NCBI GenBank assembly: GCA_963789535.1
Contig: CAWBKU010000002.1
Coordinates: forward strand, 9,046 to 73,045
Direction of reading: 5' to 3'
Source of the DNA: an uncultured Alphaproteobacteria bacterium
Lineage (GTDB): Bacteria > Pseudomonadota > Alphaproteobacteria > Rhodobacterales > Rhodobacteraceae
DNA length: 64,000 nucleotides
Positions 8,001 to 34,211 of this stretch are shown piece after piece (positions within the stretch are counted from its first letter, which is position 1; each line of letters opens with the position of its first letter). The position numbers and the translations under genes are program-made. The notes beneath the pieces were generated by a model. It saw only the letters and a list, made by a program, of their open reading frames with translations, had not been told where the DNA came from and searched no databases.

Positions 8001-8075
8001 GCCCGGGTAGCTCAGGGGTAGAGCAGTGGATTGAAAATCCTCGTGTCGGTGGTTCGATTCCGCCCCTGGGCACCA
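8001..8075 (+). tRNA. tRNA-Phe (GAA)
   Basis: Acceptor GCCCGGG/CCTGGGC, D-arm GCTC-AGGGGTA-GAGC, anticodon loop TTGAAAA, T-arm GGTGG-TTCGATT-CCGCC, encoded CCA. There is one U-U mismatch in the anticodon stem. Confidence 0.92.
8057..8072 (+). repeat. attL core (direct repeat)
   Basis: Identical 16-mer to 14871-14886. The match extends to 18 of 19 nt if the following [c/a]ca is included. Confidence 0.85.
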
Positions 8076-8078
8076 CTC

Positions 8079-9239
8079 CTATTTTTTATCGTTGCGTTTC
8101 AACGCGGTAGGGGTCGAAATTGTCCCACCGTCTGCCACGTCACCCGAAAGTGGGACACTTTTGTCCACGATTTGTCCCGCAGACATGCGCGCCAGAGCGG
8201 ACTCCGCGCCGGTTCTCTGACGTGCCGCACGGGTGTATCGCGTGACCTCTTTCGAGGTCCGGTGGCCCGTAATCGACATGATCTCATGTTCGGTGCAGCC
8301 CAGTTCGGCGAGCCGCGCCGCCGCTGCCTTGCGCAGACCGTGAACGGTGCATCCGGGCAGCTTCGCGTCGTCGCACCACTTGCGGAACCTGTTGCCGAAA
8401 CCGTTCGACGTGAAGGGGCGACCGAACTCGGTTTTCAGGAAGGCGAGGTCGCCCGTCGGTGTCGCGTCGATGATCCGTTGCATTTCGGGGATGACCGGAA
8501 TTTCGAGCCGGACGGGCTTGGTGTTGCGGCCCTTGGTCTGTGTGAAAGCCAGCCATCCGTCGCGCACATGCTGGCGACCGAACTGAACCAGATCGGCGCG
8601 GCGTTGCCCCGTATAGAGGGCGAGGGCGAGGGCCAGTCGCGCGGTAGTGCCGACAGGATGCGCGTTCTCGAATTGGTCAATCTCGGCAAGGGACCAGCTA
8701 TGGAAGCCCTCGGGATTGCCCTTCAGATACTCGACGCTGACAGCCGGGTTCACGTCATGCAGGTCATAGCGCAGGGCGAACTTGAATAGCTGGCGCAGCG
8801 CCTTGACCATACCGTTCGCCGCCTCGGGCCGGTCCATCATGTCGTCGCGCCGCGCACGGATATGCCGGGGCAGGAGCATGGCAAACGGTTTGTCGCCGTC
8901 GCCCTTGTTCTGGCAGACCCGCTCTAGGATTGCCCTGCGCACGGTCTGGGTGCGGGGGTCCATCTCCCTGAACATGGCCGACTTGTAGTATTCGACGCAA
9001 AGCCATTTCAGGCTGTGGGGCACCACACGCCCTGCCTTTGCGACAGACGCCTTGCGCGGGGTCTTGGGGTTCGCGGCGGCGCGGTAGTCGGTCAGGAACT
9101 CGGGCGAACCAGTCGGCCCCCTCAGTCGGACCTTGCGACCGTCGTGCCGGTAGTAGAGCCGCACGTTGCCGTGCCGGTCCACGTCCTCCACCACATACTT
9201 CAGGCGCATCTGCATGGCGTCCCCCACACGATCAGTCAT
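8079..9239 (-). CDS. int: tyrosine-type site-specific integrase
   Basis: Catalytic signature TGQRRADL ... HGLRKAAA ... GHRTSKEVTRYT. The stop lies 3 nt from the tRNA CCA. ATG 9239 overlaps the xis stop by 8 nt. Confidence 0.93.
   Translation of the reverse strand: MTDRVGDAMQMRLKYVVEDVDRHGNVRLYYRHDGRKVRLRGPTGSPEFLTDYRAAANPKTPRKASVAKAGRVVPHSLKWLCVEYYKSAMFREMDPRTQTVRRAILERVCQNKGDGDKPFAMLLPRHIRARRDDMMDRPEAANGMVKALRQLFKFALRYDLHDVNPAVSVEYLKGNPEGFHSWSLAEIDQFENAHPVGTTARLALALALYTGQRRADLVQFGRQHVRDGWLAFTQTKGRNTKPVRLEIPVIPEMQRIIDATPTGDLAFLKTEFGRPFTSNGFGNRFRKWCDDAKLPGCTVHGLRKAAAARLAELGCTEHEIMSITGHRTSKEVTRYTRAARQRTGAESALARMSAGQIVDKSVPLSGDVADGGTISTPTALKRNDKK
8117..8180. repeat. cluster of TTGTCCCAC / GTGGGACA motifs (candidate integrase/Xis arm-type sites), attL side
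   Basis: TTGTCCCAC at 8120-8128 and GTGGGACA at 8150-8157, plus degenerate copies ttgtccac (8161-8168) and ttgtcccgc (8172-8180). The same motifs recur at 14779-14786 and 14827-14835. Confidence 0.6.
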
Positions 9240-9480
9240 CGTAGGGATTGTGGTCTGACTCGTCGCCCCCCGGCAACAGGTCAAAAGAACGGTCCAGTGC
9301 CCGCACGTCCCAGACCCTGCGACCGTCTATTTTCTTGGGTCTAGGCATCCGCCCGTCACCCGTCATGGCATCGAATTTCGTCGGGCTGACGCCGATGTAT
9401 TCCGCCGACTCGACACGATTCAGCCCGCGCCGCGTTGGCGGGGGGACTGCATCGTGCCGAATCGGACGGGCATCGGTCAT
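9232..9480 (-). CDS. xis: excisionase / AlpA-like helix-turn-helix DNA-binding protein
   Basis: 82 aa. LNRVESAEYIGVSPTKFDAM...GRMPRPKKIDGRRVWDVRALD matches the excisionase-family HTH pattern. Lies directly upstream of int. Confidence 0.8.
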   Translation of the reverse strand: MTDARPIRHDAVPPPTRRGLNRVESAEYIGVSPTKFDAMTGDGRMPRPKKIDGRRVWDVRALDRSFDLLPGGDESDHNPYDD

Positions 9481-9484
9481 CGGC

Positions 9485-9808
9485 TCAGCCGTCCAGCCGG
9501 ACGTTGACGCTGGCGGACGGGTTGCCTGCCACAGTGACGGCGAGGCCAACGCGGGTGTTGCCGCTGGCGGTGGTCGTGACCAGTCCGTCGGATGCCCGGT
9601 GGTAGGCGATGGCCCCCACGGCGAAGGCGTCGGTTTCGACCTTGGGCAGATCGAACACGCCGACCGTGGACAGGACCAGAGGCTCGCCGATAGCGGCGTC
9701 CCCGAAGGCCACGCCGATCAGGTTGCCGACTTTCACCACGTCGCCAGAGGCGGCGATTGCGGCGGCGGTGAGGGTGATGCGTTCACCCGGCTGCACGTAG
9801 TTTTTCAT
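9485..9808 (-). CDS. DUF2190 family protein (phage head decoration-type)
   Basis: 107 aa, MKNYVQPGE.ITLTA......GDVV.VG.L.GVA..DAA.GE......VGVF.LPK family pattern. Confidence 0.8.
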   Translation of the reverse strand: MKNYVQPGERITLTAAAIAASGDVVKVGNLIGVAFGDAAIGEPLVLSTVGVFDLPKVETDAFAVGAIAYHRASDGLVTTTASGNTRVGLAVTVAGNPSASVNVRLDG

Positions 9809-9809
9809 C

Positions 9810-10028
9810 TCAGATTCCCTTCGATGTGTTGAGGTAGATGGTGTGGACCGGCTGACGGCTGGCCTTGGCGATTTCGGCCTCTAGAAAGCCAATGGCGCGG
9901 GCCATCTCGCCGTCGGTGCGGTAGGTTACGAGTTCGCCGCTCTGGTCCCTGAAGGTGAGGACACCACTGGCCCTGTTGAGGACCAGAGCATCGCGGGCAG
10001 CGACCAGAGCGGCGAGGGTGAGGGCCAT
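9810..10028 (-). CDS. gpW-like head-tail joining protein
   Basis: 72 aa. L.ALVAARDAL......G....F.D..G..V.Y......M...I.FLE.EI aligns by eye to lambda gpW ([46 protein letters not shown]). Confidence 0.7.
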   Translation of the reverse strand: MALTLAALVAARDALVLNRASGVLTFRDQSGELVTYRTDGEMARAIGFLEAEIAKASRQPVHTIYLNTSKGI

Positions 10029-10029
10029 A

Positions 10030-11859
10030 TCAGTCCCCCGGGTTCAGGTAGGCAGCGCGCCAGTCGAGCCAGCCCGCGCCGAAGTCGAGCCACGCGCGGA
10101 ACTTCAGGCCCAGCGTGTCCCACGCCTCTGCCCGCTGAATCTGGACGCCTTGGGCACTGGACAGGTAGCCGTATTGCAGCGCCGCGACACGGGCCGGGTC
10201 GGCGAAGATATACCAGCTTTCGTCTTCGATCCGGGGTTCCACCAGAAGGGTCAGCTTCGCCATCCCCGACTGAGCGTCGGCACTGGTGGCCGGGTATATC
10301 GAGGCGAGGAACCTCTCAGCCGCCGCCTCGCCAGCGGGACCGACCAGCAGATAGCGGGGGGTCACGTTGATGAGGGTCTTGCCGTCGAGTCCTTTGAAGC
10401 CCCGCATGGCCTTGCGGGCGTCGTCCAGTGCGGCGGTGTCGCCTGTGCTGCCCAGCGACACGCCGGACGCGATGGTGTTGCCCCGTGCCGTGCTAAAGAC
10501 GGGGTTGCCGTCGGACAGGTTCGGGTTGCCGGTGATGAGGTCCGTCATGATATCCCGCTCAGTGTCGGCAGCCGCCTCACCAAACGCCGCCGTCATGTCG
10601 CCCAGCAGGTTGAGGTCATCGTTGATGATGAGGTTGCGCGACACGGTGATGGCCCGGGCGTAGGTCTTCAGGACCAGCGACTCGCCGTTTTCCGCGCGGC
10701 TGGTGTGGGTGATTTCGCCAGACTCGGCGAGTTCTTCCAGACGGCCCATCTCGCCCAGACGGATTGCCGTGCTGGTCTTGAAGTTGCTCAGCGACCGTTG
10801 ACGGCCAAGTTGCTTCAGGGGCGACTGAGCGGCTTGATAAGAGGCCATCGCGGTCTTGTTCGCGGCGTTGGACACGACGAGGGCGAAGTCGCTGGTGGTA
10901 TGCTCGCCTGCACGGGTCAGCACTTCGTCATTGCTCATGCCGCGTGTCGAGATACCGGCGCGGCCCAGCGAGTCCTTCGCCACGTCCATGAGCGACATGG
11001 ACATGAACTGCCGAACCTCGGGGGCCGGGGTGCCGCCCGCCATGCGGACGTGCAGGGCGTCGGCCATGCGGTCACGGATGACAGCGGGGTCATCGTTCGC
11101 CGGGGTGTGGCTGCGGATGATCGGGGTCGTGCTGCGGCGGGTCGCCCCTACAAGGTGCGCGTCGGTAAGCTGGTCGAGTTCGTTCGCGGCGATGACAGCC
11201 GGGGCCACGCGCGACAGCCCGCGCACCTGACCCGCCGATTGCGCCTCAAAGACGTGGATCACGTCGGCGGCGTCAAACCGGACAGAGGGCGCATATTCGG
11301 TGAACTCGGCAGTCGGGCGCTGGGGAAGAATCCAGTAGGCGACAATCTTGCCACCGATGAACTCCACGCCGTTCACGATTTCATGGTGGGAGGCGATGAA
11401 GGCGGTCTTGGACTCGTCCAGATGCTCGGGCGGCAGAACCTGAATCCACAATTCGCCGTCGTCGCCGACGTGCAGGATTGCCAGTCCCTCGCCGTCGCGG
11501 ACCATGTGCAGGGCGAGGATGCGTTGCAGACCGTAGAAGTCGGTGCGACCGTCATAGTCGGCGGCGGTGGTCCACGACTCGAAACGCCGCATGACCTCTT
11601 CGTCGGCGACGTTCGGGCGGATGCCCGTGCCGGTCATGGACGTGACGAGATTATCTAGGGCATTTCGGATCAGCCCGTTATTCACATAGAGGCTGCGGGA
11701 ACGGCTGCGCACAATCGGCCCAGCCGCCGCAATTTCAGAATTGACCGGCCCGAACGTCCCTTGACCTTTGCCACGCCGCTGCCTGCCCGCTGCGTCAATA
11801 GAGCGAACGTGCGGGGCCGGGTCGGCGCGGCGAAAGAATTTGGGGAACGGGAAGGCCAT
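10030..11859 (-). CDS. chimeric ORF: lambda-family portal N-terminal half fused in frame to a complete phage major-capsid domain
   Basis: Residues about 50-250 align by eye to lambda gpB (RS.SLYVNNG.IRNA.DN.V....GTGIRP; VIHVFEAQSAGQVRG..). Residues about 285-609 carry the capsid pattern SLMDVAKDSL...RGMS..EV..RA..HTTSDF....N.ANK, ITVSRNLIINDDL..LGDM, WYIFADP, LKFRAWLDFG. The portal C-terminal half, protease and scaffold are absent. Confidence 0.7.
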   Translation of the reverse strand: MAFPFPKFFRRADPAPHVRSIDAAGRQRRGKGQGTFGPVNSEIAAAGPIVRSRSRSLYVNNGLIRNALDNLVTSMTGTGIRPNVADEEVMRRFESWTTAADYDGRTDFYGLQRILALHMVRDGEGLAILHVGDDGELWIQVLPPEHLDESKTAFIASHHEIVNGVEFIGGKIVAYWILPQRPTAEFTEYAPSVRFDAADVIHVFEAQSAGQVRGLSRVAPAVIAANELDQLTDAHLVGATRRSTTPIIRSHTPANDDPAVIRDRMADALHVRMAGGTPAPEVRQFMSMSLMDVAKDSLGRAGISTRGMSNDEVLTRAGEHTTSDFALVVSNAANKTAMASYQAAQSPLKQLGRQRSLSNFKTSTAIRLGEMGRLEELAESGEITHTSRAENGESLVLKTYARAITVSRNLIINDDLNLLGDMTAAFGEAAADTERDIMTDLITGNPNLSDGNPVFSTARGNTIASGVSLGSTGDTAALDDARKAMRGFKGLDGKTLINVTPRYLLVGPAGEAAAERFLASIYPATSADAQSGMAKLTLLVEPRIEDESWYIFADPARVAALQYGYLSSAQGVQIQRAEAWDTLGLKFRAWLDFGAGWLDWRAAYLNPGD

Positions 11860-11861
11860 AG

Positions 11862-12467
11862 TTAGTTTGCGGCGTTGCGAGCGGCACGGCGGCTCGGGTG
11901 AACGCGGTCCAGAATGTCGGTCATCGGGACAGACAGGACAGCCCGCGCCTCATACTGAGGGCCGGGGTGCGTGACATTTGTGCCCTCTGCCGTCGGACGC
12001 GACATGAAGCGGCCTTGAAACAGTTTCTCGCCGGTGGGGGTGGCAAAGAGCCAAAGGTCAAACACCCAATCGCGCGATCCGCCCTCATATTCGCGGATGA
12101 CGTGCTGCCCCGGCGTGATTGCGGGGTATTTGTTGTCGGGGGCATCCCCGTCGCGCCAGAAGTTGAACGCCATCGCGACGGCTTGGGCAGCGCCGTTGCC
12201 TGAAATGCCGAATTGATTCAGCCGCACCAGAACTTCTGCCACCAGAATTTCACCGGGCAGAAAGAGAAAAGCCCGCTTGCCCTCAGTCTCTTGGGCGATG
12301 GGGGTCAGTTGGCCTTGCCGCATATACCAGCGCAGCCGGTCAGTGACCGCCTTCTTGTCTTCGCCGGGATAGGCGACAGCATCGGCGAGGTCGCCGATAG
12401 TCAGAAGGTCGCCCGGGTTCTTTCGGACCTGCTTGGGGATCATCGCCCCGCCATAAATCTTCGCCAT
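11862..12467 (-). CDS. hypothetical protein with MerR/TerS-like N-terminal HTH motif; first gene of the leftward operon
   Basis: Start chosen at ATG 12467: GGAGAGG lies 8 nt upstream, and hand-counted GC3 rises from about 48% upstream to about 76% downstream. The N-terminus LLTIGDLADAV.....K.VTDRLRWYMRQGQL.P is HTH-like. Confidence 0.6.
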   Translation of the reverse strand: MAKIYGGAMIPKQVRKNPGDLLTIGDLADAVAYPGEDKKAVTDRLRWYMRQGQLTPIAQETEGKRAFLFLPGEILVAEVLVRLNQFGISGNGAAQAVAMAFNFWRDGDAPDNKYPAITPGQHVIREYEGGSRDWVFDLWLFATPTGEKLFQGRFMSRPTAEGTNVTHPGPQYEARAVLSVPMTDILDRVHPSRRAARNAAN

Positions 12468-12498
12468 TTGTCGCACCTCTCCATTGTCAGGATAGGGC

Positions 12499-12533
12499 GA
12501 CTCATATGCCGGATTGCCCGCATATGTCGAGTC
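12499..12533. promoter_or_regulatory. imperfect inverted repeat in the divergent intergenic region (candidate operator)
   Basis: gactcatatgc (12499-12509), a 10-nt spacer, then gcatatg-tc-gagtc (12520-12533). Lies 32-66 nt upstream of the 12467 start. Confidence 0.35.
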
Positions 12534-12737
12534 GAAAACCAATTGTAAACCGTAGGTTAGCAATGCCATGAGACTTGACCAAGGCGGGCCACCCGGTGTA
12601 GTGAGTCGTTGTTGGCCGCTCGTTGTAGTGATCGTCGGTTGGCTCCTGTCCGGGTTTGGTTGGCCCGGAACTGGCGGCGGGGGTTTGTCCATGTCCCCCG
12701 CCGCTTTCTTTCCCCTGAACTCGAAAGGACCAAGCCC

Positions 12738-12974
12738 ATGCGACAGTTTACCAAAGGACACGACAAGGCCCTCGGGCTTGCCCGAGTGGCGATGCACGTC
12801 AATTCGATAGAGGGGTGCAGTCTGCAATCGTGGCGGAACGACGTGCAGCTTATATGCAAGATGTGCAACGTCTCCGCGCCCGACGACTATCTGGCATGGG
12901 TGACGGGCGGCGACATGAAGGACGCCGACATTGCGGACCGGTCGCGGGCGTTCGGGATGCAAAGAGTCCGCTAA
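12738..12974 (+). CDS. small hypothetical protein (78 aa), divergent from the head-gene operon
   Basis: ATG 12738 with AAAGGA 8 nt upstream. Hand-counted GC3 is about 78%, which favours coding on this strand. Has three Cys and one His (H20, C27, C41, C44) but no recognisable family. Confidence 0.45.
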   Translation: MRQFTKGHDKALGLARVAMHVNSIEGCSLQSWRNDVQLICKMCNVSAPDDYLAWVTGGDMKDADIADRSRAFGMQRVR

Positions 12975-13080
12975 ACCGACTGCTGACTAATAGTCTACCA
13001 GCAACAATCGAAGCTGCGCGGCAACGCTCAGAAGTCTGACGCGCCTCAACGGGAAATAGTCGCTAGTTGGACAGCTTAAA

Positions 13081-14100
13081 TCAAACCTTCCGGGTAATTG
13101 ACATCTCCAGCACCAATTTACTTCCCAAAGCAGTCAAGCTCAGAAATTCAGAGTAGCTGCCAGCAGTTGTCTTGGAAACATGGCTCGACACCAGCCCTAA
13201 GGCGATAAGTTGGTTCTTGATGCGAATAATAAAAAAGTCCGAAATTTTCGAAGGTTCTTTAAATGACCCAGTATCAGCTGCAAGAGCACGCAGGCCATAC
13301 AAGATACAGTAGGATGGTGGGCGAGCCAGATCAAGCTGGGATGCAACTGCAAAAAATATTTGCTTCCAACTCAAATCGACGGAACGCTCGTATTCAGAAG
13401 TCCTTCCTTGGTTTGTCTGTTTAAATTTATACTCAATTGAAAAAATGTCCTCAAGGCCAGCAATATTATCAAATTTAGGCGCCATCGCCGCTTCAGCGCG
13501 CGCTAGTTTTTGCTCTGCTGAACTGAGAAGTTCCCTAAGTTCTTTGTTCTTTGTCATTTCGTCATTCAAGCGATTTACTGCCTCTTCGCTAGCGGCAGTA
13601 TTGGCACGAATCCAACCCACTTGCGGATGGTCGTTCAAAGCATGCATCAATGATTTGAGAAGAGTGCTTTCAAGGTCCTGCCGCGTCTTCCATGTCTTTA
13701 CTAGACGGCCCGTCACTACTTTTCTTCTAAATTCATCGAGAGCATTTGCCGCCTTGGTCTCGACCTCACTCTTACCAATAGAGATTTCCTCAGGGTTAGA
13801 GTGCACAAATGCTAAGACAATTTTATTTGTCTCTATTGCGTATTCATATTCCTTTTCTGTGAAGCTTATACCCTCTGAGTCCACTGAGCCGTATCGACCC
13901 CCGATGATAAGCACGTAATAGTCGCACTCATCAATGACCTTTTTAATATATGAGAATTGCTCTGTATCCGATGCGGGAAATAACTCCATTCCGGCAGGAA
14001 TGTGGTTAAGATCTAGGATGCTACGAATCGCATCAGCGCGCTCGTCTTTAAGGTCTGTGAAGGTTGAAGAGACAAATACTTGGAATTTCTTGACGCTCAT
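13081..14100 (-). CDS. DUF4062 (TIR / nucleoside-2-deoxyribosyltransferase-like) domain protein with coiled coil and an unassigned C-terminal domain; low-GC foreign cassette
   Basis: 340 aa from ATG 14100 (GAAGGTG 8 nt upstream). N-terminus is KFQVFVSSTFTDLKDER..MELFPA..DECDYYVLIIGGRYGS..SFTEKEYEYA..NKIVLAFV. A heptad-like stretch covers residues about 170-205. Hand-counted G+C is 32-50% per 60-nt line against about 68-70% in the flanks. Confidence 0.8.
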   Translation of the reverse strand: MSVKKFQVFVSSTFTDLKDERADAIRSILDLNHIPAGMELFPASDTEQFSYIKKVIDECDYYVLIIGGRYGSVDSEGISFTEKEYEYAIETNKIVLAFVHSNPEEISIGKSEVETKAANALDEFRRKVVTGRLVKTWKTRQDLESTLLKSLMHALNDHPQVGWIRANTAASEEAVNRLNDEMTKNKELRELLSSAEQKLARAEAAMAPKFDNIAGLEDIFSIEYKFKQTNQGRTSEYERSVDLSWKQIFFAVASQLDLARPPSYCILYGLRALAADTGSFKEPSKISDFFIIRIKNQLIALGLVSSHVSKTTAGSYSEFLSLTALGSKLVLEMSITRKV

Positions 14101-14123
14101 ACAACCCGCACCTTCTGAAATTG

Positions 14124-14654
14124 TTAGTGTCCGTCTAGCCATGCGCTTCGGATCACGCTAGCGGATTTTTTTGGCATGCCCCCCAGCGCCCCGTTGAGGC
14201 GCGCCAGAAGGGCAGTCCGTTGTTCGGGGGAGTGGGCTTTGCTCAAAGGGCAGAAGACGCGCCAGCGCCGCCCCTTCCCGGGCTTACCGTCGCTAGGTGT
14301 CGTGTAGATCAGGGCGGTGATACCGGCCTTCTCGACAAGCCCCACGGCCTCCACGGGGGCCACGTCCCCTGCGTCATAATCGACCTCAACGCCCGTGATG
14401 CTCAAGACATTGGAGTCATAGCGCAGGCAGTTCTTATCGGACGGCACGTCGCCGAACGTCGCGCCCTTCAAGAAGGGCAGCAGGTCCTTGGACGGGGCGA
14501 TGCGCTTTTCGATCCCAGCGGCGAGGCGGCGCAGGCTCAGCGTCTTCTCAGCCTTGGTCTTGGCATATTGGTCGGGGAAGAGCGTGACCGTCATGGGGGC
14601 GTCCAGAGGGTCTTGATCGGGGGCCGGATTGGGGGTATTCAGATACCGCGACAT
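14124..14654 (-). pseudogene. 5' fragment of an island/phage replication (primase-like, VirE-N/AEP-type) gene, truncated at the low-GC cassette junction
   Basis: 176 aa from ATG 14654 (AAAGGA upstream). The pattern PFLKGATFGD....R.D.NV..ITG.E.DYD ... YTTPS......RWRV..PLS resembles N-terminal domains of primase-helicase proteins that are normally several hundred aa long. The reading frame ends within about 40 nt after composition switches to AT-rich. Confidence 0.45.
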
Positions 14655-14778
14655 AGTGTTGTCCTTTCGCATGTCGTTTTCAGGGATTGGCTTTGGGGCC
14701 GGTTCAATCTTCCAGACCCCCGGCAGGCTCGCTCACCTGCCGGGGTTTCTGTTTTTCGGGGGATAAGGGTCTGTTTCG

Positions 14779-14835
14779 GTGGGACAAAAATTCCCGAAAA
14801 ACCTAATGAAACTATGGGAAGAACGATTGTCCCAC
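14779..14835. repeat. GTGGGACA / TTGTCCCAC motif pair (candidate arm-type sites), attR side
   Basis: GTGGGACA at 14779-14786 and TTGTCCCAC at 14827-14835. The extended match cgaaa(a)gtgggaca is shared with 8145-8157. Confidence 0.55.
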
Positions 14836-14870
14836 TTTTCGCTAAGCCACAGGAATCAAAGGCTTAATGT

Positions 14871-14886
14871 ATTCCGCCCCTGGGCA
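14871..14886 (+). repeat. attR core (direct repeat of the tRNA-Phe 3' end)
   Basis: attccgcccctgggca, identical to 8057-8072. Confidence 0.85.
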
Positions 14887-15073
14887 ACATTTACCGCGTC
14901 GAGATCGGGACGTGTCGGAGATGCGCGCGGAGCCGACTGCGTCGTCCCTCGTGCCCGTCCCGGAGGACAGGAAGTGAAGTGGATCGTTGCAGCCTGTCCG
15001 CTGAAAAATGACGGGCTCCGACGGTGATGGGCCACATTGCCTCTTTACAGCGTAACCGTCCGGGCTGACTGCT

Positions 15074-16573
15074 CTACTTCGGCCGGTTCCACGGCAGCAG
15101 GTCGTCCACGCGGGTGATCTTGTAGTCGGGGATGCGGGCGAGGGTATCGGCGAGCCAAGCCTGCGGATCGACACCGTTGAGCTTGGCGGTCTCGATGAGG
15201 GTATAGGCGATGGCAGCGGCGCGGCCGCCGGTGAGCGAGCCGACGAAGAGGTAGTTCTTCCGACCGATCGCGACGGAGCGCATCGCACGTTCGGCCGTGT
15301 TGTTGTCCAGCTCCAGGACCCCACAATCGAGATAGGGCCGGAGCCGCTTCATGCGGGTCAGGGCGTAGCGGATCGCCACGGCCAGCGGCGACTTGCCGGA
15401 GATGGATGGCAGCTGGAGGTGCAGCCAGGCCTCGAGGTCGTCGAAGATCGACACCGCCTTGGCCTGCCGGATCTCGACGCGCCTATCCGGGGGCGAGGCT
15501 CTCACCTCCTTCTCGACGCCGTAGAGTTGGGCGATGCGCGCGATGGCCTCCTCGGCGATGGCCGAGCCCTGGACCCGATGAACGTCGACGAACTTGCGCC
15601 TGACATGGGCCATGCAGGCGACCTCGCGGATGTCGCCGGACCGGTAGATGTCCTCGAACCCGGCGTAACCGTCGGCATGCATCCAGCCGCGGTAGTCGGC
15701 GAGATGGTCCTTCGGATGCTGACCCTTCCGATCCGGCGAGAACCGATACCAGCTGGCGGGCGGTGCGGCACCGCCCCAGGGTCGCTCATCTCGCGCATAG
15801 GCCCAGAGCCGTGCCGTGGCCGTCTTGCCGGTGCCGGGTGCCAGCATCCGGACGGGCGTGTCGTCCGCGAAGATCGCCTGTCCGGCCAAGACGTGCCGGC
15901 CGATGGCGTCCGCCAGCGGCTCGAGTAGCGCGGTGCTCTTCCCCACCCAGTCCGCCAGCGTCGAACGGTCGATGTCGAGCCCATCACGCTCGAAGATCTG
16001 GCTCTGGCGGTAGAGCGGCAGATGATCGGCGTATTTGTTGACCAGAACGTGGGCGAGCAGGCCAGGACCGGGGCGTCCACGCTCAATGGGGCGGGATGGC
16101 AGGGACGCCTGGGTGAAAGCTTCGCAGCCGGAACACGCGAAGCGCGGTCGCACGATGCGGTTCACGATGAACCGCCCGGGCACATACTCGAGTTCCTCGG
16201 TCACGTCCTCGCCCAAGCGACGCAGCACGCCGCCGCACTGGGCGCAGTCATCGTCGCCGGTGGTGAGTTCGACTTCCATCCGCGGAATGTGATCCGGGAT
16301 CGGGCGGCGCTTCGGCTTGTCCTTGGGCTCCTCGTCGGGAAGCCGCAGCTTCGCCGTCATCTTCGCGATCGAGATCTCGGTCGCCTCGAGCGCCAGCTGA
16401 AGCTGCTCGATGGTCTCCGACGAGGTGCCGAACCGGGAGTTGCGGTGACCGGCAAGCTGATGCTGGAGCTTCATGATCAGCATCGCCTGCGACTTAACCT
16501 CGGCCAGAAGCAGGGCCGTGAAGTGACGTAGTTCGTCGGGATCTTCCGGCAGGGATCGGGCGGTGTAGAGCAT
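15074..16573 (-). CDS. tnpC: IS66 family transposase TnpC
   Basis: 499 aa from MLYTARSLPED. Contains a leucine-zipper region, the zinc-finger C.QCGG...C..C, and the LPLYRQ and DDT....L DDE region. Confidence 0.93.
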   Translation of the reverse strand: MLYTARSLPEDPDELRHFTALLLAEVKSQAMLIMKLQHQLAGHRNSRFGTSSETIEQLQLALEATEISIAKMTAKLRLPDEEPKDKPKRRPIPDHIPRMEVELTTGDDDCAQCGGVLRRLGEDVTEELEYVPGRFIVNRIVRPRFACSGCEAFTQASLPSRPIERGRPGPGLLAHVLVNKYADHLPLYRQSQIFERDGLDIDRSTLADWVGKSTALLEPLADAIGRHVLAGQAIFADDTPVRMLAPGTGKTATARLWAYARDERPWGGAAPPASWYRFSPDRKGQHPKDHLADYRGWMHADGYAGFEDIYRSGDIREVACMAHVRRKFVDVHRVQGSAIAEEAIARIAQLYGVEKEVRASPPDRRVEIRQAKAVSIFDDLEAWLHLQLPSISGKSPLAVAIRYALTRMKRLRPYLDCGVLELDNNTAERAMRSVAIGRKNYLFVGSLTGGRAAAIAYTLIETAKLNGVDPQAWLADTLARIPDYKITRVDDLLPWNRPK

Positions 16574-16632
16574 GCCAGAACATAGCAAATTATGAGCCTG
16601 ACGGGAATCCTCGATGCGCGCGCCTTGCCAGA

Positions 16633-16980
16633 TTATCCCGCTCTGAGCGGCTTCCAGCTGCGCTGCGGCTGTCGCCAGTCGATGCCCTCCAGGAGCATCG
16701 CCAACTGCGCCGCCGTCAGAGAGATCTTGCCCTCCTTCGCCGACGGCCAGACGAACCGGCCCGTCTCCAGGCGCTTGGAGAACAGGCATGCGCCCTGGCC
16801 GTCCCACCAGATGATCTTGACCAGATCGCCGCGCCGCCCCCGGAAGACGAACATGTGGCCCACGAACGGATCCAGCTTCAGCGTCTCCTCCGCCTGCGCG
16901 GCCAGCGTCGTGAACCCGCGCCGCATGTCGGTCACCCCCGCCGCCAGCCAGACCCGCGTGTTCGACGGAACGGGGATCAT
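16633..16980 (-). CDS. tnpB: IS66 Orf2 family protein TnpB
   Basis: 115 aa, [23 protein letters not shown]...... typical TnpB. Its ATG overlaps the tnpA stop (ATGA). Confidence 0.92.
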
Positions 16981-17357
16981 CCCGACAGACCCCGGATCAG
17001 CCGGGCCAGCGCCTCGGGGTCGTAAGTCCCGACGATCCGCAGCCGATGGCCGCCCGCGACGTCGATCTCGATCGTGCCAGGCGCAGGCGTCGGATCGGAC
17101 ACTGACGCCAGATCTTCGCTTTGTGGCTGATTGACGATCTGAACCGGCAGGAAGCCATGCGGCTCGACCGCGGGCTCGTCGGCTACAGTGCCGACAGCGG
17201 CAAATCGTGCATCGCGCAGCCACGTGAAAACCAAGTTCGCATTGACGTCGTAGCGCCGCGCGACCTGGCTGACCGACACGCCCGCCACCCGCGTCTGCTC
17301 GCAGATCGCCCGCTTCTCGTCGTCGCTCCAGATCCTGCGCTTGCGCCGCTTCGACAC
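16977..17357 (-). CDS. tnpA: IS66 Orf1 (transposase TnpA, HTH)
   Basis: 126 aa, RR.WSDDEKR.I..Q....G.SVS.VARRY.VNANL.F.W. Confidence 0.9.
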
Positions 17358-17519
17358 CCTACGACCCCGATAATGTCCACTATCCCTTAGTGGACACTAT
17401 CGACGGGCAGACGCCGCCGTCAGAGCAGCGAGCCCGGACAGTTACTCTACAGCGGCCTCCTCGGAATCCGGATGATCGAAAGGCTTTGCAGACAGGCAAT
17501 TTCCGGGACCGTTTCTGAA

Positions 17520-33821: not shown

Positions 33822-34160
33822 CGCATTGCGAAGAGGGAAAGTGCAGGCTTCTGTTGCCAGGTGCCTGCGAACCCCGCCTTACGCTGCTAGGCGCAAGGAC
33901 TTAGGTTTCGGCAACTCGGACTGCTTACGCAGCCAGAGCCATAGCCGGAGCACGGTTGTTATTGGCAACTGTACAATTCGGACCGATAACGGTGGTACCT
34001 CACCGAGACAAAGACATCCCCTTTAGACGTTCGTCGATCCTGTTTCGACCCCATCGGCCCCCAATAAGGGTGTTTGGTGGAGTCGCCGGGTACCGCCCCC
34101 GGGTCCGATCCGCGTATTACGAGCGCGTTTATGTCCATAGTCCCGAAGGACAGGATCAAC
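33795..34160 (-). ncRNA. ssrA: tmRNA (ssrA), circularly permuted two-piece alphaproteobacterial type; outer ends approximate
   Basis: Minus strand. The acceptor piece ends ..GGAC-CCGGG-GGCGGTA-CCCGG-C-GACTCC-ACCA (CCA at 34075-34077). After a 22-nt spacer, the coding piece starts GGGGUCGAAACAGGAUCGACG (5' end at 34052). G3-U pairing with CGACUCC gives the Ala identity pair. The tag ORF at 33925-33966 encodes ANNNRAPAMALAA-stop. Confidence 0.88.
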
Positions 34161-34211
34161 ATAGGCGCTGAGGCGACATCCGGCAAGGGGTTCACCGAAC
34201 CGCCGGGCGGC

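What the first reader, a model, noticed from the sequence alone, without database searches (positions are those of the whole stretch)
8057..14886. Compact 6.8-kb att-flanked element at tRNA-Phe: decayed prophage or a phage-satellite-like island that keeps only int/xis, a few head genes and a switch region
A perfect 16-bp direct repeat of the tRNA-Phe 3' end (8057-8072 and 14871-14886) brackets the following: int, xis, DUF2190, gpW, a portal::capsid chimera, an HTH protein, a divergent small gene, the low-GC cassette and a primase-like fragment.

There is no terminase, tail, lysis or complete replication gene, so it cannot be an autonomous phage. Yet the recombination module and both att sites look intact. 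The six leftward genes are packed with 1-4 nt gaps or overlaps: 11862/11859, 10030/10028, 9810/9808, 9485/9480, and 9239 overlapping 9232.

This size and content (integrase, primase-type replication gene, capsid-related genes, defence-like cargo) resembles helper-dependent satellites more than random decay.
Basis: partly seen in the sequence, partly recalled or inferred. Interest (0 to 1): 0.7.

Follow-up and report, generated by a model that had tools for sequence, protein, structure and literature searches.

The report
Decayed capsid-forming phage satellite with defence gene
The 6.8-kb island at tRNA-Phe is a half-deleted copy of a roughly 12-kb tail-less, capsid-encoding phage satellite that is common in Rhodobacterales; it keeps its integration machinery and an anti-phage NADase gene but has lost what it needs to replicate and package itself.

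Summary
tRNA-Phe (8001-8075) and an exact 16-bp direct repeat (8057-8072 / 14871-14886) bracket int, xis/AlpA, a DUF2190 decoration gene, a gpW-like adaptor, a portal(1-239)::capsid chimera, a 201-aa gene, a small divergent gene, a low-GC gene and a primase N-terminal fragment.

Relatives decide the interpretation. Nine full-length relatives in Rhodobacterales are att-flanked elements of 12.1-13.9 kb, not 40-kb prophages. Their order is primase, TerS, TerL, a low-GC cargo slot, a small divergent gene, a ~200-aa gene, portal, protease::capsid, adaptor, decoration, xis, int, tRNA. There is no room for tail or lysis genes, so the design is that of a capsid-forming PICI.

The window copy differs by two deletions. 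One runs from primase residue ~175 to the end of TerL. The other is an in-frame 1.45-kb loss joining portal to capsid.

The low-GC gene is a Swarozyc (KpSwz) homologue (E 5e-59), a portal-activated NADase defence. It sits in the family's defence hotspot, which holds ShosTA, AriAB or GmrSD in relatives.

Int, xis and conserved arm motifs at both ends look intact, so excision is plausible. Autonomous satellite function is not. Verdict: a decayed member of a known kind, with moderate interest.

The parts
8001..8075 (+). tRNA-Phe(GAA), the integration target. Its 3' end carries the attL core.
   Evidence: ARAGORN; Rfam tRNA, 61.7 bits.
8057..8072 (.). attL core, the left copy of the exact 16-bp direct repeat.
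   Evidence: (D13).
8120..8180 (.). Cluster of TGTCCCAC-type 9-mers (8120+, 8150-, 8172+) inside the 3' end of int. Putative arm-type recombinase sites.
   Evidence: The same pair, 30 bp apart, is found beside the tRNA in L001, L003, L007, L010, L014 and L023.
8079..9239 (-). Tyrosine integrase, 386 aa, full length.
   Evidence: PF00589 and phrog_1. 76% identical to the L001 int over its whole length and 99% to the L023 int. The R, HxxR, H and Y motifs are visible in the translation.
9232..9480 (-). AlpA-like excisionase/regulator, 82 aa.
   Evidence: phrog_25900 at 5.9e-15 and phrog_66. 76% identical to the L001 homologue.
9485..9808 (-). DUF2190 / Phage_cement_2 head decoration protein.
   Evidence: Pfam 8.8e-25 and phrog_122 at 3e-29.
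9810..10028 (-). gpW-like head-tail adaptor (Ad1), 72 aa.
   Evidence: phrog_2545 at 9.4e-10. Conserved at the same place in L001, L009, L011-L014, L016 and L024.
10030..11859 (-). In-frame chimera: portal residues 1-239 fused to residues 221-590 of the protease::capsid fusion protein.
   Evidence: Pfam and PHROG. Alignments to the L016 portal (86%), P0003 and P0002.
11143..11159 (-). Deletion junction 1. Relative to L016, 1,461 bp are missing (portal C-half, a 54-aa gene, protease/scaffold); 15 unaligned bases remain. Net loss is 1,446 bp, in frame.
   Evidence: blastn of window against L016; codon view.
11862..12470 (-). Conserved ~200-aa gene that precedes portal throughout the family. Possible N-terminal MerR-like winged HTH; function unknown.
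   Evidence: 24-25% identity to the L001 and L016 homologues; 57% to P0244 in complete element L024. AF2 pLDDT 53 with MerR-family top matches at E 0.03-0.1. No Pfam hit.
12609..12974 (+). Small divergent gene (the true start may be later, around 12738). Conserved partner of the ~200-aa gene; putative regulator.
   Evidence: Homologues on the opposite strand at the same place in L016 (42%), L001 (35%) and L024 (83 aa). No family hit.
13081..14142 (-). Swarozyc-type DUF4062 TIR-like NADase defence gene. Low-GC cargo in the family's accessory slot.
   Evidence: PF13271 at 7e-30. PDB 10wc_A KpSwz at E 4.9e-59, aa 18-269 against 4-250 of 326, with the 'FTE' catalytic Glu conserved. Function taken from preprint 10.64898/2026.05.01.722283.
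13035..13053 (.). Left arm of a 19-bp inverted repeat that brackets the low-GC gene (right arm at 14190-14208). Unexplained.
   Evidence: I10.
14124..14672 (-). N-terminal fragment (182 aa) of the element's primase/helicase. Deletion junction 2 lies at about 14100-14145.
   Evidence: 47% identity to residues 6-172 of the 774-aa L001 primase; 61% to the L016 primase N-part.
14779..14835 (.). Two exact TTGTCCCAC sites (14779-, 14827+), 48 bp apart, beside attR. Putative arm-type sites.
   Evidence: The same pair, 47 bp apart, is found at the distal att of L001 and L003.
14871..14886 (.). attR core, the right copy of the 16-bp repeat.

Best explanation
The island is a deletion derivative of a tRNA-integrating, tail-less, capsid-forming phage satellite. 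This satellite family, about 12-14 kb, is widespread in Rhodobacterales.

Intact members encode a primase/helicase, TerS, a lambda-type TerL, a variable low-GC cargo slot, a small divergent gene, a ~200-aa gene, a lambda-type portal, a protease::capsid fusion, a gpW-like adaptor, a DUF2190 decoration protein, an AlpA-like xis and a tyrosine integrase. By inference, they build and fill their own small heads and borrow only tails and lysis from a helper phage, as cf-PICIs do.

The window copy carried a Swarozyc-type NADase defence gene in the cargo slot. It then suffered two deletions:
1. From primase codon ~175 to the end of TerL, which placed Swz directly behind the primase stub.
2. An in-frame 1.45-kb loss, which fused portal residues 1-239 to capsid residues 221-590.

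What is left is a probably still excisable island, since int, xis, both att cores and both sets of arm motifs are intact. Its only plausible current function for the cell is anti-phage defence by Swz. It cannot replicate, make heads or package DNA on its own.

Shown: the anatomy, the homologies, the family architecture and sizes, the deletion endpoints and the identity of the cargo.

Inferred: helper dependence of the family, excision competence, Swz activity, and the order of events.
For: Family size and boundaries. tRNA 3'-end direct repeats of 15-56 bp bound elements of 12,069-13,892 bp in L001, L003-L006, L009, L012, L013 and L024/L026. The targets are tRNA-Phe, Glu, Met, Pro and Tyr.

Family content. 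L001 has a D5_N/DUF5906 primase, TerS (phrog_57), GpA-type TerL, PF05136 portal, procapsid fusion, adaptor, DUF2190, AlpA and int, with no tail or lysis gene and no space for one. The same order holds in 13 other loci and in L024. In the 123 matching phage records, the capsid match is always below 60% identity; the best is 32%.

Window against relatives. The primase stub equals residues 6-172 of 774, and there is no TerS or TerL. Window 9484-11143 matches L016 9233-7573 at 90.8%, and window 11159-11835 matches L016 6111-5435 at 87.5%, which leaves a 1,461-bp gap. The junction falls at chimera residue 239/240. Among the 120 best-listed of 806 homologues, only P0001, which is identical to the window protein, carries portal plus capsid domains; its cluster-mate P0121 is the same locus as L015.

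Cargo slot. In all 10 elements examined, the stretch after TerL is 7-14 GC points below its locus. It holds ShosTA (1.7e-89 / 9e-45), an AriAB-like gene (1.3e-42), GmrSD/HEC-06 (3e-160), DUF2971 or DUF2806. The window gene in that position matches KpSwz at 4.9e-59.

Mobility. The window int is 99% identical in protein to the L023 int, decoration 96% and adaptor 92%. L023 sits at the same tRNA-Phe in another species whose flanking housekeeping proteins are 68-92% identical; the adjacent HDAC-family protein and RNase G are both 78%.

Decay is recurrent. L023 is cut by IS elements, L014 lacks everything upstream of portal residue 152, and P0002 joins an AAA_25 helicase gene to the procapsid gene.

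att integrity. TGTCCCAC motif pairs sit at both ends in the family-conserved geometry.
Against: No experiment or read-level data show that any member of this family is induced, packaged or helper-dependent. The satellite lifestyle is inferred from gene content and size alone.

No helper phage was identified. The rest of the window is housekeeping.

All retained genes are intact ORFs with normal codon bias, and the chimera is in frame. This could mean selection rather than very recent deletion.

The direct ancestor is not available. L016 is only 87-91% identical, so the breakpoints are approximate and the order of events is a guess.

Remnants were found by capsid similarity, so the apparent survival of the int-proximal end is partly ascertainment bias.

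The source appears to be a metagenome-derived assembly, so small indels cannot be excluded.
Confidence: 0.8

Rival explanations
1. The 6.8-kb element is a working minimal satellite. It would excise with its own int/xis and be replicated and packaged in trans, either by a helper phage or by an intact sibling element of the same family. That would make it a satellite of a satellite.
For: Int, xis, both att cores and the arm motifs are intact. All retained ORFs are uninterrupted and the chimera is in frame. Sibling elements with complete head and terminase modules exist in the same sample or genome: P0003 and L016. The window capsid part is 100% identical over 370 aa to that of P0002.
Against: The architecture is unique to this locus among the 120 best-listed of 806 homologues. 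The region where lambda-type cos sites normally lie, upstream of TerS, is deleted along with TerS and TerL. Other remnants have different, unrelated breakpoints. An in-frame outcome has a one-in-three chance. No attP junction was found in JGI metagenomes, though that search is weak.
Confidence: 0.1
2. It is the collapsed end of an ordinary ~40-kb temperate prophage.
For: The head genes (lambda-type portal, protease::capsid fusion, DUF2190, gpW-like) have distant homologues in real siphoviruses such as the 41-kb Rhodobacter phage RcDormio group.
Against: Every relative with both att sites is 12-14 kb, with int 2 kb from the capsid gene and primase at the other end. Identity to any cultured phage capsid is at most 32%. 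No tail or lysis gene is present in any of the elements examined.
Confidence: 0.03
3. The chimera and the truncations are assembly artefacts of a metagenome-derived genome that holds several similar copies of the element.
For: At least two other related copies exist (P0002, P0003). One of them shares an identical 370-aa capsid segment that starts exactly at the junction. The source looks like a long-read metagenome assembly (record names).
Against: A second, independent and noisier contig (L015) shows the same order and the same junction. A repeat-driven mis-join would need similarity between portal codon ~239 and procapsid codon ~220, and there is none. The junction keeps the reading frame and the flanks are collinear with the chromosome.
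Confidence: 0.03

Closest known systems
Capsid-forming PICIs (cf-PICIs; Alqurainy et al. 2023, cited from memory and via reference lists; model and statistics from de Sousa et al. 2023, PMC10085698)
   Same: At family level: a chromosomal island of about 12-14 kb (cf-PICI median 14 kb) with int, an AlpA-type regulator, primase/replicase, TerS, TerL, portal, prohead protease, major capsid and head-tail adaptor, and with no tail or holin genes. The protease and capsid are merged, as reported for some cf-PICI variants.
   Different: No HNH nuclease. The terminase and portal are of lambda GpA/gpB type, and the capsid is of the Mu gpT / Phage_capsid_4 type. Int and xis sit at the capsid end and primase at the other end. 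The hosts are Rhodobacterales (Alphaproteobacteria), which the cf-PICI section and the text searches of the census paper do not name. Helper dependence is untested. The window copy lacks 5 of the 11 core components outright (primase, TerS, TerL, HNH, protease), and its portal and capsid survive only as parts of one chimera.
P4-like satellites and PICIs with defence hotspots (established knowledge: Rousset et al. 2022 and Fillol-Salom et al. 2022, cited from memory)
   Same: A fixed position in a conserved satellite backbone holds interchangeable, low-GC anti-phage systems. Here these are ShosTA, AriAB-like, GmrSD, DUF2971 and Swz.
   Different: The backbone is different, and here the slot lies between TerL and the morphogenesis operon. 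No defence phenotype was tested.
Swarozyc (KpSwz) DUF4062 NADase defence (preprint 10.64898/2026.05.01.722283; PDB 10wc/11cq/11cv). Related: Evangelion (10.64898/2026.06.25.731849)
   Same: A single gene with an N-terminal DUF4062 TIR-like domain. It is alignable to KpSwz over 250 of 326 residues at E 4.9e-59, and the catalytic Glu is conserved.
   Different: The last ~80 residues, which are part of the portal-binding AUX domain in KpSwz, do not align. The host is an alphaproteobacterium and the carrier is a satellite remnant whose own portal gene is truncated. Activity and trigger are untested. PADLOC v2 (2023) does not recognise the gene.
Marine VEIMEs and PICMIs (PMC9618062, PMC10803314)
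   Same: Small tRNA-integrating marine satellites with int, AlpA and a primase.
   Different: VEIMEs encode no major capsid gene, and PICMIs are minimalist without capsid genes (abstract). This family encodes a complete head and packaging module.

Membership tests
cf-PICI (11 core components plus forbidden tails/holins, per PMC10085698) | Integrase and AlpA-type regulator | tested here: met
   PF00589 at 3e-16 and phrog_1; phrog_25900 at 6e-15 and phrog_66.
cf-PICI | Primase/replicase | tested here: not met
   The window has only residues ~6-172 of a 656-774-aa primase/helicase. Full-length relatives have it.
cf-PICI | TerS and TerL | tested here: not met
   tblastn with TerS and TerL of L001 and L016 finds nothing in the window. 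Both are present in L001, L003-L006, L009, L010, L012, L013, L016 and L024.
cf-PICI | HNH nuclease | tested here: not met
   No HNH hit in the window ORFs or in the L001 or L024 gene sets. It may be dispensable with a GpA-type cos terminase; that point is inference.
cf-PICI | Portal, prohead protease and major capsid as separate working genes | tested here: not met
   The window has portal residues 1-239 fused to capsid residues 221-590, and the protease/scaffold part is deleted. Relatives have a complete portal and protease::capsid fusion.
cf-PICI | Head-tail adaptor / connector | tested here: inconclusive
   An adaptor is present (phrog_2545 Ad1, 9e-10). No separate connector was recognised. 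Several small conserved ORFs remain unannotated.
cf-PICI | No tail or holin genes inside the element | tested here: met
   All ORFs between the att sites are accounted for in the window, L001 and L024, and none matches a tail or lysis family.
cf-PICI | Helper-induced excision and packaging into own small capsids joined to helper tails | not testable with these tools
   Needs induction, virion DNA sequencing and EM. The attB and attP exact searches in JGI metagenomes were empty.
cf-PICI | Sequence relatedness to the described cf-PICI clade | not tested
   No reference cf-PICI sequences were compared. The domain families differ from those I recall for EcCI/KpCI-type cf-PICIs (memory only).
Swarozyc (DUF4062 NADase defence) | DUF4062 TIR-like domain with catalytic Glu | tested here: met
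   PF13271 at 7e-30. KpSwz alignment at E 4.9e-59. The Glu of 'SFTEK' aligns with KpSwz E97, counting from the 16-C construct.
Swarozyc | C-terminal AUX domain of the KpSwz type | tested here: inconclusive
   The alignment runs to residue 250 of 326 in KpSwz; the last ~80 residues of both proteins are unaligned.
Swarozyc | Portal-triggered NAD+ hydrolysis and abortive infection | not testable with these tools
   Property taken from the preprint.
Remnant of a full-size temperate prophage | Close relatives are ~40-kb elements with tail and lysis modules between the same att sites | tested here: not met
   Nine relatives with both att repeats are 12.1-13.9 kb and tail-less.
tRNA-targeting tyrosine-recombinase island | Direct repeat of the tRNA 3' end at both borders, int adjacent, arm-type repeats | tested here: met

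The most novel reading that the evidence does not exclude
The deletions are not neutral decay. Once the satellite acquired a portal-activated NADase (Swz), its own ring-forming portal became a liability, and loss of the portal C-half and of the packaging genes was selected. This turned the satellite into a resident, still excisable defence island.

The retained in-frame portal-N::capsid protein might then act as a decoy or modulator of Swz, or as a dominant-negative poison of sibling or helper head assembly.

Alternatively, the mini-element is mobilised in trans by the intact sibling element (P0003/L016 type), making it a satellite of a satellite.
Probability: 0.1. Interest if true: 0.7.

Novelty: new member of a known kind. 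Interest (0 to 1): 0.45.

Why it matters
For this locus the result is mostly clarifying: a puzzling mix of head genes, int/xis and a low-GC gene is explained as a decayed satellite carrying a defence gene.

The by-product is of wider use. There is a coherent, previously unannotated family of about 12-kb capsid-forming satellites in Rhodobacterales. It targets several tRNAs, is recently mobile between species, and has a defence hotspot that holds ShosTA, PARIS-like, GmrSD and Swarozyc genes.

Several members sit in cultured strains: Primorskyibacter flagellatus, Seohaeicola nanhaiensis, Wenxinia marina, Heliomarina baculiformis and Roseovarius sp. C7. Helper identity and tail theft in marine alphaproteobacteria are therefore directly testable.

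The co-occurrence of a portal-sensing NADase with a truncated self-portal is a concrete, cheap experiment on conflict between a satellite and its own cargo.

Tried and rejected
Searches that gave nothing:
- Exact-protein contig look-ups for the chimera, P0002 and P0003 returned nothing. The 1.0-Mb contig holding the closest siblings could therefore not be read.
- The single genome-collection scan did not return the source genome.
- Exact searches of JGI metagenomes for an empty attB and for an attP junction found nothing. This is uninformative, because the organism appears only in ENA/NCBI data.
- L022, the closest flank homologue, has no tRNA-Phe next to the deacetylase gene, so it is not an empty site.

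Annotation attempts that failed:
- PADLOC v2 gives no hit for the DUF4062 gene, the 201-aa gene, the small gene, the primase stub or the chimera.
- Pfam at E<=5 gives nothing for the 201-aa gene, the small divergent gene or the unknown ORFs of L001 and L016.
- The AF2 model of the 201-aa protein is poor (pLDDT 53). Its MerR-like matches (E 0.03-0.1) are only a hint.
- Rfam finds only the tRNA.
- The sigma-70 promoter scan is not above chance.
- Swz homologues in phage collections are few and distant.

Ideas considered and rejected:
- That the low-GC gene was inserted into and destroyed the primase gene. Rejected because the same slot after TerL carries low-GC cargo in every intact relative, so a deletion from primase to TerL explains the adjacency.
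- That the TGTCCCAC motif is enriched window-wide. It is not (10 found against 10 expected). Only its clustering at both att ends and its conservation in relatives is meaningful.
- A GTA-like origin. Rejected because the elements have int, att repeats, different tRNA targets and a different capsid family.

Full report
OBSERVATION

tRNA-Phe(GAA) lies at 8001-8075 on the plus strand. The 16-mer ATTCCGCCCCTGGGCA, which covers the end of the T-arm, the 3' acceptor strand and the discriminator base, occurs exactly twice in the window. The copies are at 8057-8072 and 14871-14886, and the expected count allowing up to two mismatches is 0.11. With one mismatch the repeat reaches 19 nt (D13).

- int, 8079-9239 (PF00589; phrog_1).
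- An AlpA-like xis, 9232-9480 (phrog_25900).
- A DUF2190/Phage_cement_2 decoration gene, 9485-9808.
- A gpW-like head-tail adaptor, 9810-10028 (phrog_2545).
- A 609-aa ORF, 10030-11859, whose residues 37-251 match the lambda-type portal family and whose residues 314-604 match Phage_capsid_4.
- A 201-aa gene, 11862-12470.
- A DUF4062 gene, 13081-14142, in a 43-47% GC block. The surroundings are about 65% GC.
- A 182-aa ORF, 14124-14672.

One small gene, 12609-12974, reads rightward. An IS66 element (15045-17452; 27-nt terminal inverted repeats) lies 160 bp outside the right repeat. An independent, noisier metagenome contig (L015) has the same order and junctions at 99.25% identity over 6.66 kb.

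WHAT THE RELATIVES SHOW

A search with the chimera found 806 homologues. The 120 best are almost all ~590-aa 'prohead protease/major capsid fusion' proteins of Rhodobacterales at 53-88% identity. Among those 120, only the window's own protein, P0001, combines portal and capsid domains. Its cluster-mate P0121 is the L015 copy of the same locus.

Fourteen genome loci were fetched. In eleven of them a tRNA gene lies close downstream of the capsid gene, about 2 kb away in most. In eight, a 17-56-bp repeat of the tRNA 3' end recurs upstream and bounds elements of 12,069-13,892 bp. A ninth complete element (L024/L026, tRNA-Tyr, 15-bp repeat) is 12.25 kb. The targets are tRNA-Phe, Glu, Met, Pro and Tyr.

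Annotation of L001 (Primorskyibacter flagellatus, tRNA-Phe, 12,264 bp) gives this order:
1. D5_N/DUF5906 primase, 774 aa.
2. A 119-aa ORF.
3. TerS (phrog_57).
4. GpA-type TerL.
5. Two unknown ORFs.
6. A small ORF on the opposite strand.
7. A 202-aa ORF.
8. Lambda-type portal, 464 aa.
9. Protease::capsid fusion, 593 aa.
10. gpW-like adaptor.
11. DUF2190.
12. AlpA/xis.
13. int, followed by the tRNA.

The same order is seen in the other loci and in L024, whose genes carry precomputed Pfam hits: Prim-Pol/PriCT_2/AAA_25, GpA terminase, DUF2971, portal, capsid, cement and integrase. There is neither a tail or lysis gene nor room for one.

No record in the phage collection has a capsid more than 33% identical. 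The nearest full phages are 41-kb Rhodobacter siphoviruses at about 30%. This is therefore a separate lineage of small, tail-less, head-and-terminase-encoding integrative elements. Its design is that of capsid-forming PICIs: median 14 kb, 11 core components, tails and holins absent (PMC10085698).

HOW THE WINDOW COPY DIFFERS

The 182-aa ORF aligns to residues 6-172 of the L001 primase (47%) and to the primase N-part in L016 (61%). Nothing in the window matches the rest of primase, TerS or TerL.

At DNA level, window 9484-11143 matches L016 9233-7573 (90.8%) and window 11159-11835 matches L016 6111-5435 (87.5%). So 1,461 bp of the relative are missing, covering the portal C-half, a 54-aa ORF and the protease/scaffold N-terminal 220 codons. 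Fifteen unaligned bases stand in their place, a net in-frame loss of 1,446 bp. The protein junction is ...LTDAHLVGA|TRRSTTPII..., at chimera residue 239/240.

The 201-aa gene is a diverged homologue of the ~200-aa gene that precedes portal in L001, L016, L009 and L024: 24-25% identical to the L001 and L016 proteins and 57% to that of L024. The rightward small gene has homologues on the opposite strand at the same place in L016, L001 and L024.

The element therefore equals the family backbone minus two blocks. This accounts for the size difference: about 12.3 kb against 6.8 kb.

THE LOW-GC GENE

It matches the solved structure chains of KpSwz (PDB 10wc/11cq/11cv) at E 4.9e-59, over residues 18-269 against 4-250 of 326. 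The 'FTE' glutamate that corresponds to KpSwz E97 is conserved.

According to a 2026 preprint, Swarozyc is a single-gene TIR-like NADase defence. The phage portal switches it on, and it causes abortive infection. A second preprint describes related DUF4062 defences under the name Evangelion. PADLOC v2 predates these and gives no hit.

Its position is not accidental. In all ten family members examined, the stretch just after TerL is 7-14 GC points below the rest of the locus and holds one or two variable genes:
- ShosTA in L009.
- An AriAB-like gene in L012.
- GmrSD/HEC-06 in L013.
- DUF2971 in L006 and L024.
- DUF2806 in L010.
- A SEC-C-motif protein in L003.

The family thus has a defence hotspot, as P4-like satellites and PICIs do (established knowledge, from memory). 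Swz is the window copy's cargo. A deletion from primase codon ~175 to the end of TerL is enough to put Swz directly behind the primase stub, so no separate insertion into primase is needed.

RECOMBINATION MODULE

The int is full length: 76% identical to the L001 int over its whole length, with the R, HxxR, H and Y motifs visible in the translation.

TGTCCCAC-type 9-mers are not enriched in the window as a whole. However, five of the ten matches lie within about 100 bp of the att cores: 8120+, 8150- and 8172+ on the left, and 14779- and 14827+ on the right. The same geometry recurs in relatives with related integrases. A pair 30 bp apart sits beside the tRNA in L001, L003, L007, L010, L014 and L023, and a pair 47-48 bp apart sits at the distal att of L001 and L003.

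I read these as arm-type sites, which is an inference. Both arms are intact, so excision is plausible but not shown.

MOBILITY AND DECAY

L023, from the same sample, is a different species. The housekeeping proteins around its tRNA-Phe are 68-92% identical to those of the window; the adjacent HDAC-family protein and RNase G are both 78%. Yet the element's int is 99% identical, decoration 96% and adaptor 92%, while the capsid is only 53% identical.

That pattern means recent horizontal spread of the int-proximal module, together with mosaicism. The L023 copy is cut off upstream of the capsid gene by IS elements and has no distal repeat.

Two further remnants exist. L014 (Oceanicola granulosus HTCC2516, tRNA-Phe) lacks everything upstream of portal residue 152. 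P0002 is a run-on ORF that joins an AAA_25 helicase gene directly to a complete procapsid gene, and its last 370 residues are identical to the window chimera.

Decay by internal deletion is therefore common. Since remnants were found through capsid similarity, survival of the capsid end is partly ascertainment bias.

MECHANISM AND CONFIDENCE

Best explanation (0.8): a decayed capsid-forming satellite that now functions, if at all, as an excisable defence island expressing Swz.

Rivals:
- A working mini-satellite mobilised in trans (0.1). For: the intact recombination module and uninterrupted ORFs. Against: uniqueness of the architecture, loss of TerS, TerL and the likely cos region, and the differing breakpoints of other remnants.
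- A collapsed 40-kb prophage (0.03). Contradicted by the relatives.
- An assembly artefact (0.03). Contradicted by L015 and by the lack of any repeat at the junction.

The most novel reading still open (0.1): portal loss was selected because the cargo senses portals, or the chimera modulates Swz or poisons head assembly.

COMPARISON WITH KNOWN SYSTEMS

The family works like cf-PICIs. It differs in lacking HNH, in using lambda-type TerL and portal with a Mu-gpT-type capsid fused to its protease, in gene order, and in host range (Rhodobacterales).

Library searches found no description of it. VEIMEs lack capsid genes.

Membership in cf-PICI proper is not established. The window copy itself fails the primase, TerS, TerL, HNH, portal and protease criteria. 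I file the finding as a new, degraded member of a known kind.

LIMITS

- There are no expression, induction or packaging data.
- No helper was identified; the rest of the window is housekeeping.
- The DNA of the closest siblings could not be fetched.
- The attB and attP searches were empty and uninformative.
- The function of the 201-aa gene rests on a poor model with weak MerR-like matches.
- A 19-bp inverted repeat (13035-13053 / 14190-14208) bracketing the Swz gene is unexplained.

Noticed in passing
window 15045-17452: A complete-looking IS66-family element: 27-nt terminal inverted repeats at 85%, transposase at 15074-16807, orfA at 16977-17357 and a TnpB-like ORF between them. It lies 160 bp outside attR. 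The decayed sister element in L023 also has an IS66 on its distal side, with a transposase 87% identical.
   Followed up: partly
window 13035-13053 and 14190-14208: A 19-bp inverted repeat (18/19) brackets the low-GC Swz gene. The right arm lies inside the primase-stub coding sequence. The repeat does not extend and its origin is unexplained.
   Followed up: partly
L009 5535-7050; L012 5556-7121; L013 5151-6842; L006 6078-7031; L024 4818-5786; L010 5192-6202: The satellite family has a low-GC defence hotspot just after TerL. It carries ShosTA, an AriAB/PARIS-like gene, GmrSD/HEC-06, DUF2971 and DUF2806 genes in different members.
   Followed up: yes
L016 1-11630 (ENA ERZ25039505 contig_6783): The contig ends look circularly permuted. 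The primase N-part is at the contig end and the AAA_25 helicase part is at the contig start, with an ORF open across the join. This may be an excised, episomal or tandem form of a complete sibling element. Its int differs from the window's and is inverted.
   Followed up: partly
L023 5884-9762 (ENA ERZ25039505 contig_14660): A second species in the same sample carries, at the orthologous tRNA-Phe, a further-decayed copy. Its int is 99% identical but its capsid only 53%. This indicates recent inter-species transfer plus module exchange.
   Followed up: yes
L014 10001-14752 (Oceanicola granulosus HTCC2516): A cultured strain carries another truncated remnant at tRNA-Phe. It runs from portal residue 152 onward, and has no TerL, no primase and no distal repeat within 10 kb.
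   Followed up: partly
L001 3705-3792: Three ATGTCCCAC copies, with the same core as the att-arm motif, cluster between primase and TerS of the intact element. This is possibly a cos/TerS site or an AlpA site.
   Followed up: no
window 14718-14745: A strong GC-rich hairpin followed by a T-run (terminator-like, plus strand) lies between the primase-stub start and attR.
   Followed up: no
window 33834-34168: A permuted (two-piece) tmRNA with tag ANNNRAPAMALAA, typical of Alphaproteobacteria. No island is adjacent; the neighbouring genes are DUF4345 and a solute-binding protein.
   Followed up: partly
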